A stretch of 10,772 nucleotides of DNA from Azolla caroliniana (taxonomy: Eukaryota; Plantae; Polypodiophyta): the NCBI GenBank assembly GCA_043228905.1, contig JBHGNT010001230.1, positions 1 through 10,772 on the forward strand, in the 5' to 3' direction. Within the stretch, counting starts at the first letter, position 1; each line of letters starts with the position of its first letter. The notes under the pieces were generated by a model. The model saw only the letters and a list, made by a program, of their open reading frames with translations, was not told the origin of the DNA and did no database searches. Below, piece after piece: positions 1 to 10,281 of this stretch. The translations under genes and the position numbers were made by a program.

Positions 1-1506
1 ATCGGGATTGAACTCGAAGATGATGACGGTGCGAACGGCCTTACTGAGGATTGGGCTAAAGTCGAAAGGGTATGCCGAAGACATGATGAAAGGAAGCTGA
101 GAATCTTGTCAACAACGACATGGCCCATGAAGGATGGTCGATTGAGGAAAAACGATGAAGCCAATATGAAGGCCGAAATACAACATGATGGTACCACGGG
201 AGAAAGAGTGGAACAAGACACCCACTCGTCTTGTGAAAGAACGATGGCGAAGGATAAGGCCGATAATTCAAGTGTAGAAGGAAATTTCGGGATACAAGTG
301 CCCGAGACATCGGGTCAAAAAGGGGTAAGCATAATAGATGTTTGCATAATTGATGCAGATAAAGAGTGTGAAGCGGATGTGATTAAGGAGGTAGCCACAA
401 AAGACGAAATCGAATCGGAGGTGGCTATGGACGAATCAATGGCGGATTGCCATATCGAGACTTCCCCACCACTGATTCCAGAGACTCCGGCGGTTGCAAT
501 CGAAAGGCAACGTGAGACCGAAGAGACGGAAGGTGGCGGAGAGAAAACGAATGTCGAAGCCGACGAATACGATGAAGAGATAGCCGAGAAGAATGCTAAG
601 GGTGAAACTACGAAAGAAGGTAATACCGAGGATTCATGCCAACAATATCTAGAGACTTCGGCGGTTGTGTCCGAGAACCAACGTGAGACCGGAGAGACGG
701 GAGGTGGCGGCGAGGAAGGTAAAGTCGGAAGTCGGTTCGGATGGAAAATGATCCATCCGAAATTCCAATCTAAAAGAAAGTGCGACAATGCGGAGGTCGG
801 GTCTACGACGGGAGAAGCGCGTAATACAGAGCACGCTCTACGGCGAATAAAGAAACGCGTGTTATGGCGAATAAAGAAGCACGCGCTACGGCGAGAAAAG
901 AAGCATGCATTACAACCACACGAGGACCGAACAACGAGCACATATCGGAGGACCTACGTGGCGAACAACGGAAAGAAGTGCCGAAAGTCGAACCGGACAA
1001 GGCAGGTGAAAACGAAGAAAAGAAAGCAAATCCGGACGAAAAGAAAAGAAAAGAAACCGACCCGAAAGAGCACTGAATCGGTAAAAACCGATCAACCGAG
1101 TCCGGATCGACCGAATACAAATCGGAAAGGAAGCCGAACTAAACGAAAGACGATCCGACGAGACCGAATCGGAAGTAAGCTAATCCGACTAAACCGAAAA
1201 TCCGAAAAGAAGTCGAGATTGATGAAGAAAAGAAAGAGGGCAAGAAAAGATACTACCGCGGATGACAAGGACCAAGCGGGCCATGCAAAAAGCGAACGAA
1301 GACTATGGTGGATCGGATGGCGACAATGGTTCGGGTGGAAAGAATGGATGTGCTCCAAATGGAGAGACAAAGTCAACATAACAAGAGAAGTCGAGGGTAC
1401 TACGAGCCGGCAACGAAACCAATCGGGTAGAGACCGGACGGAGGAGACTAACAAACACCAACAACTTCGGCACATACCGGAGGATGTGCGGGTTTGGAGG
1501 GGGTGA
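1..1506 (+). CDS. 5'-partial ORF of element A (at least 501 codons): probable gag C-terminal part, then acidic and K/R-rich low-complexity regions
   Basis: Frame 1 is open from base 1 (IGIELEDDDGANGLTEDWAKVERVCRRHD...) to TGA at 1504-1506, so the ORF track start at 106 is not the true start. No PR (DSG), RT (Y/FxDD), RH or IN motifs are present. The gag assignment of the first ~35 aa is a from-memory resemblance only. Confidence 0.55.
   Translation: MGIELEDDDGANGLTEDWAKVERVCRRHDERKLRILSTTTWPMKDGRLRKNDEANMKAEIQHDGTTGERVEQDTHSSCERTMAKDKADNSSVEGNFGIQVPETSGQKGVSIIDVCIIDADKECEADVIKEVATKDEIESEVAMDESMADCHIETSPPLIPETPAVAIERQRETEETEGGGEKTNVEADEYDEEIAEKNAKGETTKEGNTEDSCQQYLETSAVVSENQRETGETGGGGEEGKVGSRFGWKMIHPKFQSKRKCDNAEVGSTTGEARNTEHALRRIKKRVLWRIKKHALRREKKHALQPHEDRTTSTYRRTYVANNGKKCRKSNRTRQVKTKKRKQIRTKRKEKKPTRKSTESVKTDQPSPDRPNTNRKGSRTKRKTIRRDRIGSKLIRLNRKSEKKSRLMKKRKRARKDTTADDKDQAGHAKSERRLWWIGWRQWFGWKEWMCSKWRDKVNITREVEGTTSRQRNQSGRDRTEETNKHQQLRHIPEDVRVWRG
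480..714 (+). repeat. Imperfect ~64-bp in-frame direct repeat (480-543 and 651-714)
   Basis: AGAGACTCCGGCGGTTG...CAACGTGAGACCGAAGAGACGGAAGGTGGCGG vs AGAGACTTCGGCGGTTG...CAACGTGAGACCGGAGAGACGGGAGGTGGCGG, offset 171 nt. Confidence 0.9.
829..913 (+). repeat. 24-bp tandem repeat, ~3.5 copies (KHALRRIK-like)
   Basis: Units at 829-852, 853-876, 877-900 and a partial unit at 901-913, consensus AAGCACGCGCTACGGCGAATAAAG. Confidence 0.9.
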
Positions 1507-1507: not shown

Positions 1508-1603
1508 TGTCGTAGTGTATTTTGTACACTACGTGAAAAACGTATATAGTATTAGATTCAATAAAAAATGAAGAAATAGAAGAAAATAGCAAAATAAATG
1601 GAA

Positions 1604-1677
1604 CATGCATAGGGCAAGATTCGAACCTTGCACCTCCATGTTAATAATGTAATGTCTTACCATTACACTAGCATTTC
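1604..1677 (-). pseudogene. tRNA-derived sequence (Pol III type-2 promoter module) inside LTR A
   Basis: A box TAGTGTAATGG (1670-1660) and B box GGTTCGAATC (1627-1618) at tRNA spacing, a GCAAG/CTTGC T-arm-like stem, and TTTT at 1594-1591. The acceptor and anticodon stems do not pair. Confidence 0.7.
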
Positions 1678-1735
1678 ATTAGTGTTAAAGCATAGATGTC
1701 CCACATAGAAAGGTAAATTCACGCTAGGATAAACA

Positions 1736-1891
1736 TTAGAAAAACGCATAACAAAAGAAAAAGCTACACATACACATCTAGCGTGCATGATAAAAAACGC
1801 ACAAGTTAGAAAAAAGCATGATCACTTTAGATAAAGCATATAGTCTATCTATAGGAAAAGCATGGGGTCTATAGTTAGAGAAAAAGCATGG
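1736..1891 (+). repeat. Dispersed short motif TAGAAAAA(C)GCAT, ~5-6 degenerate copies in LTR A
   Basis: ttagaaaaacgcat, ttagaaaaaagcatg, ttagataaagcat, taggaaaagcatgg, ttagagaaaaagcatgg. Confidence 0.65.
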
Positions 1892-2000
1892 ATTACTAAG
1901 ACTTCCTCATCACTACATAAGGATGGGGAGCACAATGTAATTGTGTGTGAAAAATATTTGGAAACTGGATATGTTTCTAAAAAACACCAATTAATAAACT

Positions 2001-2148
2001 ATACTCGTGGGATTCACGAGAATTCTATATCATTCTCTTTCAACCGAAGTTTATATTCTTATATTCATATTGATTAATCTAATACAATACACTTGTGGGA
2101 TTCACGAGTTTGCTATAACTCTTTCTTACAACATATTTATATTCTTAT
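2001..2148 (+). repeat. ~88-bp-period duplication in LTR A, each unit starting with a CTCGTG-GGATT-CACGAG hairpin
   Basis: Hairpins at 2004-2020 and 2091-2109, both followed by CAAC..TTTATATTCTTAT. Confidence 0.8.
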
Positions 2149-2235
2149 TAGCCTTAAAACTCTCCTCTTCCTAGTCCAAAACCCCAGCGGTTCCCACCCG
2201 ACTCACGCAACGATCTGGCGCCGAAAGGCACGACA

Positions 2236-4040
2236 ACGGTGACTTGATGAGAGGATCCCTCTAAAAAATGCCTCCATTGCATAAACGAGTCCACTATTGC
2301 CAATAGCTCCTTATCATGAATTTCATAATTGATTTCGGCGGCGTCAAACTTGCGTGAGTGAAAAGCCATAGGATGTAGCTTCTCATCATGACCCCGTTGT
2401 GACAGAATGCTCCCCAATGCGAAATCCGATGCGCCAGCTTCGATAATGAATGGTTGTTCCGGATCGACATGAGCTAGAATTGGAGCCGATGTAAATGCCT
2501 TTTTAAGACTCTCGAAAGCCATATCTACTTCTTTAGACCAAATAAACGATTATCCCTTCCTGGTAAGCTGTGTGAGAGGCAGAACGAGCTTTGAGTAATC
2601 TTGTATAAACTTCCGATAAAAATTGGCAAAGCCTAAAAAGCATTGCACATCCCGCACCGAGCGCGGAGCCTACCATTCTACCACCGTCTTGACCTTAGCT
2701 GGGTCCATGGATATGCCTTCTGATGAAATGAGGTAACCGAGAAATTCCACCTGGTTGCACCCGAAACTACATTTTTCTAGCTTTGCGTAAAGACCATGTT
2801 CTCGAAGTCGCTTTAGTACTAACAGTACATGAGAATCATGCTCTTCTTCGGTCTTTGAATAAACCAGTAGATCATCCAAGTAGATGATCAGACACACATC
2901 CAAGAGATCTCGGAATATATCATTTGCCATGTGCTGGAAGACTGTTGGCGCATTAGTGAGGCCGAACAGCATGACCGTATACTCGAAGTGCCCATATCTA
3001 GTGTGGAACGCGGTCTTCCATTCATCTCCTGGTCGGATACGTACAAGGTTATAGGCCCCCCGTAAGTTGATCTTTGTGAAGAACCTGGCACCATTGATCC
3101 GTTCTAAAAGACTTGAGATAAGGGGAAGTGCATACCTATTGCGGATTGTAACTTTATTCAAGCCACGGTAATCTACCACCAGACGAAGTGAGCCATCCTT
3201 TTTCTTGACGAAGAAAATGGGTGCGTCGGCTGGAGATTTCGAATGTCGAATGAATCCATTCTCCAAATTCTCCTCTATATAGGCTCGAAGGACTTCTAGC
3301 TCGGTTGGTGACAAATTGTAGATCGGTCCCCATGGTGGCTCTTTCCCCGGTTGTAAATCGATGGGGCAATCATATGGTTGATGGTGAGGAAGTGTATTGG
3401 CTCGTACTTTATCGAATACATCGGCATAATGATGATACTTCTTTGGAAGCTGAATGGTGGACTCCTTTCTAATGGTGTCGGAGAGTTTTAGTGATATTGC
3501 GAAGAGAAACATTTCTTCCTTGCGTCCTTCTTCCCACAACTGATGTAGTGAAATGGTGGCAATCTTCTGAGTAGATACTTGGGTTTGTCGACACTGGATT
3601 TCTCTTGTTCTCCAATGTATGTCTGGGTTATGTAACTCAAACCATGGTAATCCCAAAACGATGGGATGTTCTGGGATACTAATAATGTTAAATGATACTA
3701 CACATGCTAAGTTATCTAGGACAATATTAACGGGTTCTGACTCTTCTAAGATATTTCCGGAAGCAATGGGACGACCATCAATGACGACTACAAAGGCTAG
3801 ACACGGGAGTTTTCTAAGAGATATCTGATGAACTTGGGCAAAATTCCTATCCATAAAGCAAGAATTAGCTCCGGAGTCTAGAAGTGCTAAGACATGTACT
3901 GGAGGGGTACTTTTAGTACTAACTGTTACTTGGGCTACGAACACATTGCTAACTTGCTTAGAGGGAATGGAACCACTAATGGGTTGCACAGATCTACGAC
4001 TGTCCAACCAAACGGCTCCTATTTTGGCTGGACTTAGTCG
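2236..4040 (-). pseudogene. pol: pol of element B (protease, reverse transcriptase, partial RNase H)
   Basis: LLDSGA (3870-3878), YLDD (2871-2882) and NYEIHDKELLAIV in one frame with two nonsense codons (EW* at 2670-2672 and RKG*). Catalytic-position substitutions are KINL (D>N) and EAGAS (D>G). It is truncated at HQVTV by element A. Confidence 0.95.
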
Positions 4041-4046
4041 TTTAAC
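3969..4046 (-). promoter_or_regulatory. Programmed -1 ribosomal frameshift signal (slippery heptamer plus H-type pseudoknot)
   Basis: G_TTA_AAC (4046-4040) in gag phase, a 6-nt spacer, then an 11-bp stem GTCCAGCCAAA/TTTGGTTGGAC (4033-4023/4012-4002). Loop GGAGCCG can pair with TGGTTCC (3975-3969). The -1 frame reads RLSPAKIGAVWLDSRR into pol. Confidence 0.85.
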
Positions 4047-5151
4047 CCTTCTTCTAACTGACTAAGGACATCAAATTTGTTCGCTAGATCTAGGCTATTA
4101 GTACTATTAGTACTATCAGATATCCCTACTGTAATAGGCTCGGGTTTAGTACAATTAGAACTAACAACTATTTGGTTTACCTGTCTTCTTGGCCTATGGG
4201 GACAATTTATTGCAATGTGTCCTGGTCCACTACAATAGAGACATAGTCGATTTGTTCGGCGTTGCTGCTTTTCTTCTTCGGATAATGGCCCTCGATGACG
4301 TGTAGTGTCAATCTCCATCGGAGTCGGAATATTCAATGGAGGCGCATTATAGTACTCCCTCGGTAAAGGTTTTGCTACCATTGAGGCATAGGTGGGCTCT
4401 AATCTTGCCCTTGGCATCTGTAGCTGTCGTTCCGAACGTCGCTCAAAGAGGCGGTTATCACATCTCACCGCGCGACTGATTGCTTCTGTTAAGGACTTTG
4501 GCTCTTCAAGGAAAGTCAAGAGTAAATCCTTGACATCGTTGCGTAAACCATAACGAAATTGCTCCATCAACGCTTGATCATCCCAAGGGATGTCAGTGGC
4601 GAGTAGGCGGAAATCTGCAGCGTATGCAGAGGCTGGACGGTCTCCTTGGCGTAATCACCGGATTTTGTTGATTGCGGTCCTTATGCTGTCAGTATCCCCA
4701 AAGCATGCTTTAAACTCACCTATAAACTCTTCAAAGTTGTTGAGTAATGGAGACTCCTTTTCCAACAGTGGAGCGAACCATGCCAACGCTGAGCCACTTA
4801 ACAACGTCCCTACTAAACCCACTCGTGATGCATCGGTAGGATATCGGGAAGGATTCATTTGAATAACTAATCGTACCTGATTAAGGAACCCTCTAAATTG
4901 CGATCGTGTTCCATCGAACTTCGTGGGAAGGCCAATCTTGGGTTCCTTATAATAAGGGTGCTGATCCACCCGACCACCCCCGAGCGAAGGGATCAAGACA
5001 GACTCAAACCTCGATCAGCGTCCCATACCACTGTCGTGGCGTCGAGTCGCACTTGGTGCTGGCGCACTCGCTACTGTCAAGATTCGAACTCTTTCAAGCA
5101 TTGAAACTTCGAGAAAACAGATTGATATTCCTAAGCGCTAACTATGGCCAT
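4034..5151 (-). pseudogene. gag: gag of element B
   Basis: ATG at 5151 and zinc knuckle CLYCSGPGHIAINC. ORFs 4655-4996 and 4034-4570 are in the same frame, split by a CGA>TGA-type stop. There are two further stops and one frameshift near 5115. Confidence 0.9.
4954..5074 (-). repeat. 121-bp structured CpG-rich module, copy 1 (inside gag of B)
   Basis: Ungapped match to 9902-10022, 101/121 identical by manual count. Confidence 0.95.
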
Positions 5152-5208
5152 GGGATGAAAAGAAAAGAGGAATAAGTGATTAGTATGAAGAGAGAGAGAC
5201 AGAAGGAA

Positions 5209-5222
5209 AATTTGGTTCAAAC
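5209..5222 (-). other. Non-tRNA primer binding site of element B (probable self-priming)
   Basis: The LTR end TGACA is followed by GTTTGAACCAAATT with no TGG. TTGAACCAA is complementary to TTGGTTCAA at 5485-5477, near the predicted transcript 5' end. Confidence 0.75.
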
Positions 5223-5231
5223 TGTCAGGAA

Positions 5232-5309
5232 TAGTACTAAACAGAGAGAGGATTAGTACTAAACAAAGAGAGAATTAGTACTAGAGAAGGGAAGTACTAT
5301 CAGTACTAA
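5232..5309. repeat. AGTACT palindrome repeated five times in U5 of LTR B, first three with 22-bp period
   Basis: AGTACT at 5233, 5255, 5277, 5293 and 5302. Confidence 0.85.
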
Positions 5310-5376
5310 GAGGATGGGATTGCGTAAGACTCCTCAAGAGAGGAAGAGAGAAGAGGAAAGAGAGAGAGATAGCGAG

Positions 5377-5379
<3 letters not shown>

Positions 5380-5413
<34 letters not shown>
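5380..5413. repeat. (GA)17 microsatellite within LTR B
   Basis: Direct reading of the sequence. Confidence 0.97.
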
Positions 5414-5417
<4 letters not shown>

Positions 5418-5514
5418 GATAACATATTATATATTATAAGAGAAGTACAAAAGGGCTATGAGGCTAAAGACTGGCGTTGAACCAATTTGGTTCAACATAA
5501 TGCGTAGTGCCCTC

Positions 5515-5575
5515 TTTTATAGTGTTCTCAAGAGTGATCCTGAAGCTTCTCGAATATTCCAGAGAAATCTGGAAT
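5515..5575 (-). promoter_or_regulatory. LTR B promoter: TATA box plus heat-shock element array
   Basis: TATAAAA at 5521-5515. On the + strand, GAA(5542)-TTC(5547)-GAA(5552)-TTC(5557)-GAg-aTC-GAA(5572) lie in 5-bp phase. Confidence 0.75.
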
Positions 5576-5630
5576 ATACATTAATTTCCTATAATAAAAT
5601 GTAAATGAAAATAATATCCTACGTATTACA

Positions 5631-5700
5631 ATAGATGATATAATGGTCAAGAGCTCGACCCATATAACCTAAGGTCATGGGTTCGAGTCTTGCCATATCA
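5631..5700 (+). pseudogene. tRNA-derived A-box/B-box module in stub C
   Basis: A-box-like TGATATAATGG (5636-5646), variable-loop-like AAGGTC and B box GGTTCGAGTC (5680-5689). It aligns with the module at 1604-1677. Confidence 0.7.
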
Positions 5701-5705
5701 TGACA
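5631..5705 (-). mobile_element. Element C: 75-bp terminal stub of another LTR, inserted in pol of D and interrupted by B
   Basis: The D pol frame stops at ...ELKDL and foreign sequence begins TGTCATG at 5705 on the - strand. Orientation is inferred by analogy with LTR A. Confidence 0.6.
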
Positions 5706-7128
5706 ACAGGTCCTTGAGTTCCTTAAAGGCAAGGTCTAGTGTAGCATTCCACACAATAGGTTTTGTAGACTTACGCGTTTGACCTTTTAGAAGATCAGTA
5801 AACGGCGTCGTCAATTGGGAGTAATTACGAAGGGATTTTCGCAAAAACCCGACAAAACCAAGGAATGATCGAACTTCTCGAATATTCCAAATAGTGGGCC
5901 AAAGCTTGATTTTCTCGATGCGAGAAGGATCAATTTCAACTCCTCGTTCGGTTATGAGATGTCCAAGATAAGTAATTGATTTCTTGAAGAACTCACATTT
6001 TGAGATCTTCGCATAAAACTGTTTGTCACGGAATGTTTGTAAAACAAAGCGGACATGTTTAGCATGTTCTTGTAATGTACGGCTATAAATTAAAATATCA
6101 TCCAAGAAAATAACGACAAATTTTTCAAGTTGTTCTCAGAAAATGTCATTCATTTCTTGTTGAAATGTAGCCGGAGCATTGGTTAAACCAAACGGCATAA
6201 CCAAAAACTTATAATGGCCATAGCGCGTACGAAATGCCGTTTTAGGAACATCGTCCTCACTTATACGAATTTGATGGTAGCTAGTACGGAGATCAAGTTT
6301 CGTAAAATACCAAGCTCCTTGGAGATAGTCAATTAGATAATCAGCCTGGGGCAATGGATATGAATTCTTGATCGTCACTTTATTCAAGCGTCAGTAATTA
6401 ATACACATACTCCATGTGCCCTCTTTCTTTTTAACCAAGAGAACTGGTGCACCCCATGGAGATTTACTATAACGTATATAACCCATTCGTAAATAGTCCT
6501 TGAGTTGTTTAGATACCTCATCCTCTTCGGATTGACTTAAGTGATAAAGAGGTATACTTATTGGTGCAACACCAGGTACAATATCTATACGATGGTCTAT
6601 ATTACGTTTAGGAGGTAACCCATCTGGTAGTTCACTTGGAAAATATCACGAAAATCATTTAAGATTTCATGAAGTTGTTGTTGTTCAAAATATGTTAATT
6701 GAACCGAGACATACAATCGAGAGGGATTGTTTTTCTACACATTGAATAAAATGAGTACAATCGTTCAGTACAAATGTCATTGAATGATGAACCCAATCAA
6801 TAGATAAAGAAGAGCTTTTATTATAGAACCAGGGATAACCCAGTATTACATCAGTGGTACAAAGATTCATTACATGGAAGTCTACTTCCTCTATATAAGT
6901 ATCAATACAAAATCCTAATGAATGAATCGCCCCGTTGATGTATTGTACTCTTCCATCAGCCAAGTGCACCGTATAGGTGTGATCACTTACGGTGGGTTGG
7001 ATTCCCCATATTTGAACCAAACGATCATTCACAAAGTTGTGTGAGCTTCCTGAATCAAACAAAAAATCACACGAGAGATCCATTGATATACTCGTTTGCA
7101 CGTAGTAAATCATTGGGACCCAATACAT
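5706..7128 (-). pseudogene. pol: pol of element D (protease, RT, connection), truncated by C
   Basis: [54 protein letters not shown] (6097-6108) and VRSFLGF. Confidence 0.93.
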
Positions 7129-9814: not shown

Positions 9815-9826
9815 GCTATGATACCA
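9815..9826 (-). other. PBS of element D, complementary to initiator tRNA-Met
   Basis: TGGTATCATAGC vs canonical TGGTATCAGAGC, 2 nt after the LTR end. Confidence 0.85.
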
Positions 9827-9828
9827 AC

Positions 9829-10281
9829 TATTAGAGATATGCCCTAATGTAAGCATATGATAAGGATAAAAGAATGATAGATAGAAAGGAGAGAGAGAAA
9901 GAAGGGTGCCAATCCACCTGACCACCCCCAAGCAAAGGGATCGAGACGGACTCTAGTGTCGATTGGCGTCCCATACCACCGCCATGACGTCGAGCCGTAC
10001 TTGGTGCTAGCGCACTCGCTACAAGAATTGACCCACCACAAGAACAGAGTCTCGACGTAGTCAAAAGATCATGAAATGAGGGTAGCCAGGCCTCTTATTT
10101 ATAGCGATACCCAAGGCCCCCAGGCAAGTTCACACTTGGCCTAATGGGTTGTCTCAATCCTGAGGATTAAAAGTAATCCTCCCCTTCTTTACACTCTCGT
10201 TTAACCCTCACACTTATCCACATGTATAGAATACTACAGTAAATTCTCACCATGGGATATTATATGGTCATGCCCGTAACA
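9829..10281 (-). repeat. 5' LTR of element D (453 bp)
   Basis: TGTTA (10281) ... TAATA (9829, TAACA with C>T), TATAAATA at 10103-10096, and an adjacent PBS. Confidence 0.75.
9902..10022 (-). repeat. 121-bp structured CpG-rich module, copy 2 (inside LTR of D)
   Basis: Ungapped match to 4954-5074. Confidence 0.95.

What the first reader, a model, noticed from the sequence alone, without database searches (positions are those of the whole stretch)
5631..5705. Second, different LTR terminus carries a related outward-facing tRNA-like module
Seen: on the - strand the stub reads TGTCATG-ATATGGCAAGACTCGAACC...TCTTGACCATTATATCA, aligning with LTR A ATAGGGCAAGATTCGAACC...TCTT-ACCATTACACTA. The boxes and GGCAAGA are conserved, the anticodon region has diverged, and the distance from the LTR end differs (~7 vs ~100 nt). 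Two distinct LTRs in one window sharing this module suggests a lineage-wide feature. Here the B box is only 16 nt from the boundary with no T run, so Pol III would read out into flanking DNA (antisense to D pol). The 3' half loosely resembles fMet-type tRNAs (weak, from memory).
Basis: partly seen in the sequence, partly recalled or inferred. Interest (0 to 1): 0.7.

Follow-up and report, generated by a model that had tools for sequence, protein, structure and literature searches.

The report
Backward tRNA promoter in retrotransposon LTRs
Two very distant families of protein-coding plant jumping genes carry the same backward-facing relic of a tRNA gene near the start of their terminal repeats, which likely acts as an outward-pointing RNA polymerase III promoter, an arrangement described so far mainly in tiny non-coding elements.

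Summary
The sequence, the A/B boxes and the likeness to LTR A are real. The anatomy proposed is wrong: 5631-5705 is no stub of a third element. It is the 5' tip (U3) of element B's own 483-bp LTR (5223-5705, minus strand). Contigs cross the supposed junction (25 of 32 listed pieces); ATAGA is not a TSD. B is a self-priming, Tcn1-like chromovirus family with open gag-pol in related contigs. The module sits antisense at the tip in all 57 B-type matches and about 100 nt in from the tip in family A, a non-chromovirus lineage whose Pol is only 23% identical. None of 69 matches is a free SINE. It is not a tRNA: the cloverleaf is lost and B's copy folds into a 19-bp hairpin (z -3 to -6.5). Family A keeps A box, B box and T-run terminator; B has no terminator. 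Best reading: a captured Pol III promoter that likely still works (0.45). Rivals: passenger, or replication hairpin. No expression data. fMet origin unsupported. Closest known: Helenus/TRIMp3 (sense, non-autonomous). The scan noted similar LTR modules in two other, probably fungal, genomes.

The parts
5223..5705 (-). 5' LTR of element B (483 bp, TGTCA...TGACA), Tcn1-like chromovirus
   Evidence: contigs bridge the whole tip; same 3' end in 10 other copies listed; PBS and gag follow in L007, L021, L022, L043
5636..5646 (+). A-box-like motif, antisense to B; this copy has A in place of consensus G10
   Evidence: 40 of 56 B-type copies match TRGY at the positions not fixed by the search pattern
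5680..5690 (+). B box, antisense to B
5643..5696 (.). 19-bp hairpin (arms 5643-5663 and 5677-5696) built from the 3' half of the A box and the B-box arm; folds on either strand
   Evidence: z -6.0 and -6.5; 7 other copies -3.1 to -6.1; 97.6% of 492 cells paired, no compensatory change
5515..5521 (-). TATA box of the LTR's Pol II promoter, about 115 nt upstream of the A box and pointing the other way (inferred)
   Evidence: same motif in 5 other copies
5477..5485 (-). predicted start of R, complementary to the PBS (self-primer)
   Evidence: 9-nt complement here; 7-12 nt in 4 of 5 other 5'-LTR copies
5207..5222 (-). self-priming type PBS (no tRNA complement seen)
2236..5151 (-). gag-pol of element B, broken in this copy; ATG at 5151; about 4951-5089 replaced by other sequence; interrupted by element A at 2235
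   Evidence: 87-93% to L050, L043, L022
5706..5710 (+). flank at B's 5' end (ACAGG), inside the RT/RNase H junction of element D; a TSD cannot be checked because B's other end lies outside the window
1508..2235 (+). 3' LTR of element A (non-chromovirus, Phygy-like), preceded by a PPT at 1496-1507
   Evidence: L027 joins RT-RH-INT to the same PPT and LTR start
1591..1670 (-). related module in LTR A: A box 1670-1660, B box 1627-1617, T4 at 1594

Best explanation
The stretch is the U3 tip of a coding Ty3/gypsy element's own LTR, and it carries a backward tRNA-derived A-box/B-box module that likely still works as an internal RNA polymerase III promoter pointing away from the element's own Pol II promoter. 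Shown: the module is a fixed part of the LTR, antisense, in two distant coding families, and has lost the cloverleaf. Inferred: one tRNA- or SINE-derived piece entered an LTR once and was captured again or passed to the second family by template switching; every round of reverse transcription copies it to both LTRs. Inferred and untested: TFIIIC binds the boxes; in family A Pol III would make a roughly 100-nt RNA with a 3' hairpin that ends at the T run and is antisense to U3; in family B it would make a hairpin RNA that runs out of the LTR, into host DNA at the 5' LTR and into the PPT and chromodomain region at the 3' LTR. The likely benefit is an open, nucleosome-poor edge next to the LTR's Pol II promoter in the heterochromatic nests where these elements land (tDNA barrier activity is recalled, not from a call).
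For: Anatomy. Open gag and PR-RT-RH-INT-chromodomain ORFs in L007 and L050. Family A: TRGY kept at free positions in 9 of 11 copies while position 12 varies; the A-to-B spacer has the same length in 11 of 11 although its 5' half is as diverged as the flanks; free module positions beside the B box are 74-75% identical between copies against 43-55% in flanking U3; T4 lies 15-19 nt behind the module in 9 of 11; 2 copies not picked by the pattern still hold the module (E 3e-7 and 0.002); contig depth over the module is 3-8 times that of its flanks in 4 of 4 runs (depth is no copy number, so a weak hint). Family B: TRGY in 40 of 56. The two LTRs share nothing else (one 24-nt match, E 0.003).
Against: No expression or binding data. 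In B the 5' half of the A box is more variable (79% majority letter) than the rest of U3 (87-89%); 16 of 56 copies miss TRGY, among them the window's own abundant subfamily. B has no fixed terminator (first T4 at 32-883 nt or none in 8 PPT-linked copies). In B the boxes double as hairpin arms, so their conservation cannot be assigned to promoter function. The search pattern fixed the B box and part of the A box, so these positions prove nothing. The B-box CpG has decayed in a tenth to a third of family A depth, and both unselected A copies have damaged B boxes. In A the free A-box positions are only 57.5% identical pairwise, near the flank level. 67 of 68 loci come from one small set of related assemblies.
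Confidence: 0.45

Rival explanations
1. Passenger: an old SINE or tRNA fragment fixed in U3 and copied along without function; its apparent conservation comes from recent family bursts and from the search pattern.
For: B's A-box 5' half is not conserved above background and off-consensus subfamilies are abundant. Fewer variant sites in B's 5' stem arm (3 of 21) than in upstream U3 plus loop (22 of 78) is not significant (p 0.15). CpG decay in A's B box. An earlier scan note reached this verdict for a fungal LTR (e1-9852194, not checked).
Against: Retention in two lineages with 23% Pol identity, both antisense near the U3 tip; constant spacer length, higher identity than flanks and a kept T run in A; a 19-bp hairpin in B far beyond shuffles.
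Confidence: 0.27
2. Structural role: what is kept is a hairpin at the start of U3, just behind the PPT, that helps plus-strand priming, strand transfer or RNA packaging; the tRNA origin is incidental.
For: B's hairpin starts 10 nt from the LTR tip and folds on both strands; 97.6% of cells pair, changes on one side are mostly wobble-compatible, and the bulge and loop vary. Family A has a different hairpin at its tip (4 of 4 folded, z -0.35 to -2.8) and a B-box hairpin with 2 of 13 pairs compensated. PPT-adjacent U3 stem-loops are discussed in PMC3601003 (passages).
Against: No compensatory change in B (0 of 19 pairs; the 3' arm was fixed by the pattern). The A and B hairpins differ, and 3 of 5 A modules fold no better than shuffles (z above -2). 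It does not explain A's A box and terminator.
Confidence: 0.2
3. Landing pad or decoy: the TFIIIC site attracts other elements that target Pol III starts, as Ty3 does.
For: 2 of 44 B copies break 2 and 14 nt upstream of the A box (L028, L005). An earlier scan note proposes this for a fungal genome (e1-10420520).
Against: 42 of 44 copies are intact there; the two breaks lie at different places; the window's supposed insertion at 5630 does not exist.
Confidence: 0.04
4. tRNA-pairing site: in genomic RNA the sequence is complementary to a tRNA and could bind one at the 3' end, like Ty3's second primer-binding segment (recalled).
For: Antisense orientation in U3; many variants are transitions that wobble pairing tolerates.
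Against: B self-primes; in B the site is locked in a stable hairpin; position 12 takes all four letters and the anticodon-arm region is diverged.
Confidence: 0.04

Closest known systems
Helenus / TRIMp3 (Kojima 2024, PMC10886601; parts 1-4 of 6 of the text, searched passages and one supplement passage read)
   Same: tRNA-derived sequence inside LTRs, conserved around boxes A and B, not a functional tRNA; SINE insertion into an LTR proposed as origin; Pol III activity also unvalidated there.
   Different: Helenus are short non-coding TRIMs; in the one plant family (Helenus-1_SMo, supplement) the boxes are in the sense of the element. Here the carriers are coding gag-pol families with a TATA box, and the module is antisense, so it cannot transcribe the element. 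The paper notes that 'not a few' Repbase LTRs hold tRNA-like parts but analysed only TRIMs.
Cassandra TRIM (as described in PMC10886601)
   Same: Pol III promoter from a small RNA gene in both LTRs of a plant element.
   Different: 5S-derived, sense, non-autonomous, drives its own transcription.
Simian foamy virus LTR miRNA cassettes (PMC3993851, passages read)
   Same: A/B-box Pol III units with stem-loops and T-run terminators inside the LTR (U3) of an autonomous retroelement.
   Different: Retrovirus; proven miRNA products; not a backward tRNA relic. No small RNA is shown here, and family B lacks a terminator.
Tcn1 chromoviruses (PMC6317226 and PMC2864245, passages read)
   Same: Element B: PR-RT-RH-INT-chromodomain, no tRNA PBS, predicted self-priming, LTR of similar size to SM-Tcn1 (440 bp), nearer to fungal and vertebrate than to seed-plant relatives.
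   Different: No Pol III module is mentioned in the passages found ('polymerase III' 0 occurrences in both papers; 'tRNA-like' 0 in PMC6317226).
Phygy non-chromoviruses (PMC6317226, passages read)
   Same: Element A: no chromodomain; flanks fit the NCGN target preference.
   Different: No reference Phygy sequence was available, so the assignment is provisional.

Membership tests
Helenus / TRIMp3 | tRNA-derived sequence with boxes A and B inside the LTR | tested here: met
Helenus / TRIMp3 | short non-coding element (TRIM) | tested here: not met
   the LTR flanks gag-pol in L007, L050, L043, L022, L021 and in the window
Helenus / TRIMp3 | promoter oriented to transcribe the element | tested here: not met
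   antisense to PPT, PBS and ORFs in both families
Helenus / TRIMp3 | Pol III transcription | not testable with these tools
   no stranded reads or binding data were available
free tRNA-derived SINE | stands alone with its own flanks and tail | tested here: not met
   57 of 69 matches at the B LTR tip, 11 in LTR-A-like sequence, 1 unrelated (L048)
tRNA gene | cloverleaf, recognised by tRNA models | tested here: not met
   ARAGORN found none over a module in 60 of 68 loci scanned; a cloverleaf I drew pairs in 49% of cells, anticodon stem 6%
Tcn1 chromovirus (element B family) | chromodomain at the end of integrase | tested here: met
   PF00385 in L007 and L050
Tcn1 chromovirus (element B family) | no tRNA PBS; self-priming complementarity | tested here: met
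   7-12 nt complement in 5 of 6 copies
Tcn1 chromovirus (element B family) | RT-RH-INT clusters with Tf1/Sushi in a tree | tested here: inconclusive
   named fungal and vertebrate hits mostly 48-59% identical, seed-plant hits 38-51%; no tree with references was built
Phygy (element A family) | no chromodomain; NCGN target motif | tested here: met
   (L027); 7 of 12 flanks read NCGN and 4 more differ by one CpG-type change (read)
Phygy (element A family) | phylogenetic placement with reference Phygy | not tested
   no reference set; closest named relatives are liverwort and fern proteins at 58-71%
foamy-virus-type Pol III miRNA cassette | stem-loop with a terminator at its 3' base | tested here: inconclusive
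   layout met in family A (9 of 11), not met in family B
foamy-virus-type Pol III miRNA cassette | discrete processed small RNA | not testable with these tools
   only contigs could be laid

The most novel reading that the evidence does not exclude
A portable Pol III hairpin cassette has been exchanged between the LTRs of unrelated autonomous plant retrotransposons and is kept because it works for them: a built-in tDNA-type barrier and antisense small-RNA gene that protects or tunes the LTR promoter inside heterochromatin, a plant counterpart of the foamy virus LTR Pol III cassettes.
Probability: 0.2. Interest if true: 0.75.

Novelty: new variant of a known kind. Interest (0 to 1): 0.45.

Why it matters
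Pol III promoters in LTRs are described for tiny non-coding elements, where they drive the element, and for foamy viruses, where they make miRNAs. A backward module fixed in two abundant, distant, coding plant lineages cannot drive the element, so if it is under selection it does something else: insulation, antisense RNA or a replication structure. It would also mean that very many outward-facing Pol III promoters are scattered through the host genome. The question is directly testable with one long-read genome and Pol III/TFIIIC ChIP or small-RNA data. If it is a passenger, it still records sequence exchange between distant LTR families.

Tried and rejected
Third element C and TSD ATAGA: rejected. 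My own first guesses, a Helenus-like TRIM end and then a 631-bp LTR ending at 5075: rejected when related contigs placed the LTR end at 5223 and the gag ATG at 5151. fMet origin: no support; a proper ranking against plant nuclear and organellar tRNAs could not be run. No whole genome is held. Expression: no RNA holder listed. The lack of listed variants at 5673-5705 was not used: the fetched copies do vary there, so the table is likely blind near the LTR end. Pattern scans of viral contigs and prokaryotic genomes gave 0; protein scans of viral contigs gave nothing for B's integrase end and A's RT and 10 distant B relatives (42-52%) without the module. A profile search of the window and 68 loci found no third LTR family with the module. 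The purine-count PPT flag misfired; PPT-linked copies were counted (8 of 57). One B copy (L001) was dropped from the A-box count for lack of sequence (56 of 57), and L048 was left out as unrelated. TSDs could not be checked in short-read contigs. Earlier notes looked up by this sequence gave nothing. Ten paper searches listed no description of an antisense tRNA-like module in autonomous plant LTRs; the library lacks most subscription journals and Repbase reports, and I read listings only for most hits.

Full report
Setting. The window is a nest of Ty3/gypsy retrotransposons. Element D (gag-pol on the minus strand, tRNA-Met type PBS near 9826) is interrupted at 5705/5706 by element B; B is interrupted in its RNase H region by element A, whose 3' LTR is 1508-2235. 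No genome is held. The host was not determined; the element types and the named relatives (liverwort and fern proteins) point to a non-seed land plant (inference).

Observation. An A-box-like motif (5636-5646) and a B box (5680-5690) lie on the plus strand; LTR A has the same pair on the minus strand. The likeness exceeds chance: 2 of 300 shuffles reach the alignment score, and two box pairs occur in 1 of 300 shuffled windows. Neither is a tRNA gene.

The stub is not a stub. Laid on 5540-5800, contigs of four runs cross 5630/5631 without a break (25 of 32 listed pieces bridge it with 31 or more letters on each side) and stop at 5705, where 55-93 loose ends per run gather with low agreement. 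A pattern scan of metagenome contigs gave 69 matches in 68 loci: 57 at the tip of this LTR, 11 in LTR-A-like sequence, 1 unrelated. Eight of the 57 follow a PPT; the others follow unrelated flanks (42 distinct ones counted). Of 44 copies with at least 110 nt, 42 continue as the same LTR past the proposed junction. The LTR ends at 5223 with the inverted repeat of its start, then come a PBS and the gag ATG at 5151, as in L007, L021, L022 and L043. L007 and L050 hold open gag and PR-RT-RH-INT-chromodomain frames followed by PPT and this LTR. These high-coverage contigs are collapsed assemblies of many copies, and 67 of the 68 loci come from one small set of related assemblies, so they are not independent hosts. 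So 5631-5705 is the U3 tip of B's 5' LTR. The PBS is complementary to the sequence about 30 nt behind the TATA box in 5 of 6 copies, the self-priming layout predicted for Tcn1 (PMC6317226, passages).

Two distant carriers. L027 joins an RT-RH-INT frame without chromodomain to A's PPT and LTR start. Its Pol is 23% identical to B's. The two LTRs share only a 24-nt segment over the B box and the letters behind it (E 0.003), plus the A-box core and near-equal spacing. In both families the module is antisense and lies in U3: 11 nt from the tip in most B copies, about 100 nt from the tip in most A copies. The third LTR of the window lacks it, as do 10 of 10 distant Tf1/Sushi-type contigs. Shared descent along one lineage is therefore unlikely; capture of one SINE- or tRNA-derived source, or transfer between LTRs, is the simpler reading (inference). 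The source was not found; the fMet idea got no support.

What is kept. Family A: TRGY in 9 of 11 copies at positions that the pattern left free, one spacer length in 11 of 11, free positions near the B box 74-75% identical against 43-55% in flanks, the anticodon-arm part no better than flanks (54%), a T4 15-19 nt downstream in 9 of 11, and a B-box hairpin with 2 of 13 pairs compensated. Depth over the module is 3-8 times that of flanking U3 in 4 of 4 runs, a weak hint only. Against: pairwise identity at A-box positions 8-13 is just 57.5%, the B-box CpG decays, and both unselected copies have damaged B boxes. Family B: TRGY in 40 of 56, but the 5' half of the A box varies more than the rest of U3, and the window's own subfamily departs from consensus at G10. 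There is no fixed terminator. The cloverleaf is gone; instead the module folds into a 19-bp hairpin on either strand, z -6.0 and -6.5 here and -3.1 to -6.1 in 7 of 7 other copies, with 97.6% of cells paired but no compensatory change among 26 of 57 copies aligned. The lower variation of the stem is not significant (p 0.15). Because the pattern fixed the B box and part of the A box, these positions carry no weight.

Mechanism. Shown: a degenerate tRNA-type box pair, fixed antisense in U3 of two coding families. Most likely (0.45): it remains a TFIIIC/Pol III unit divergent from the LTR's Pol II promoter, giving a short antisense hairpin RNA in A and a read-out RNA in B, and likely keeping the LTR edge open in silenced nests (barrier activity of tRNA genes is recalled). 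Rivals: passenger (0.27); a U3 hairpin used in replication (0.2; A has its own tip hairpin; PMC3601003 passages); landing pad (0.04; 2 of 44 breaks); tRNA-pairing site (0.04).

Comparison. It works, if at all, like the promoter relic of Helenus/TRIMp3 (PMC10886601; parts 1-4 of 6, searched passages and a supplement passage) but fails membership: the carriers are coding and the module points backward. That paper says that not a few Repbase LTRs hold tRNA-like parts and analyses only the TRIMs, so unreported parallels probably exist. Foamy virus LTR cassettes (PMC3993851, passages) are the nearest proven case in an autonomous element. Ten searches listed no description of this arrangement in plants. 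Two earlier scan notes describe similar LTR modules in other, probably fungal, genomes (unchecked).

Verdict. New variant of a known kind; interest 0.45.

Noticed in passing
window 4951-5089: The start of B's gag is replaced in this copy by about 140 nt of other sequence; 124 nt of it are 83% identical to the LTR at 9899-10022, and the first 15 nt (5089-5075) carry a B-box-like 12-mer identical to the LTR A module. It looks like a template-switch or conversion product.
   Followed up: partly
window 5207-5222 and 5477-5485: Clear self-priming complementarity in a Tcn1-like family (5 of 6 copies); PMC2864245 found no such evidence for SM-Tcn1.
   Followed up: yes
window 1511-1533: LTR A starts with its own small hairpin right behind the PPT; the same stem is predicted in 3 other copies, though only weakly above shuffles.
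   Followed up: partly
window 1-1506: A 501-codon, charge-rich open frame without Pfam match runs up to A's PPT; only its last 15 codons match the end of the Pol frame in L027.
   Followed up: no
window 2215-2235: A PBS-like motif (TGGCGCC) sits inside the 3' end of LTR A, just before the terminus, in several copies with variation.
   Followed up: no
L013 near 2938: A B-type LTR breaks at position 147 and continues into plant telomere-type repeats.
   Followed up: no
L039 22-286: Another A-family LTR abuts B-family pol sequence, as in the window; A may often nest in B.
   Followed up: no
L021 1944-2019: A host-type tRNA-Arg(TCT) gene lies about 920 nt from a B 5' LTR.
   Followed up: no
L009, L046, L049, L050: The distance from LTR tip to module varies in steps of 5 nt (6, 11, 16) through gain or loss of a short repeat.
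   Followed up: no
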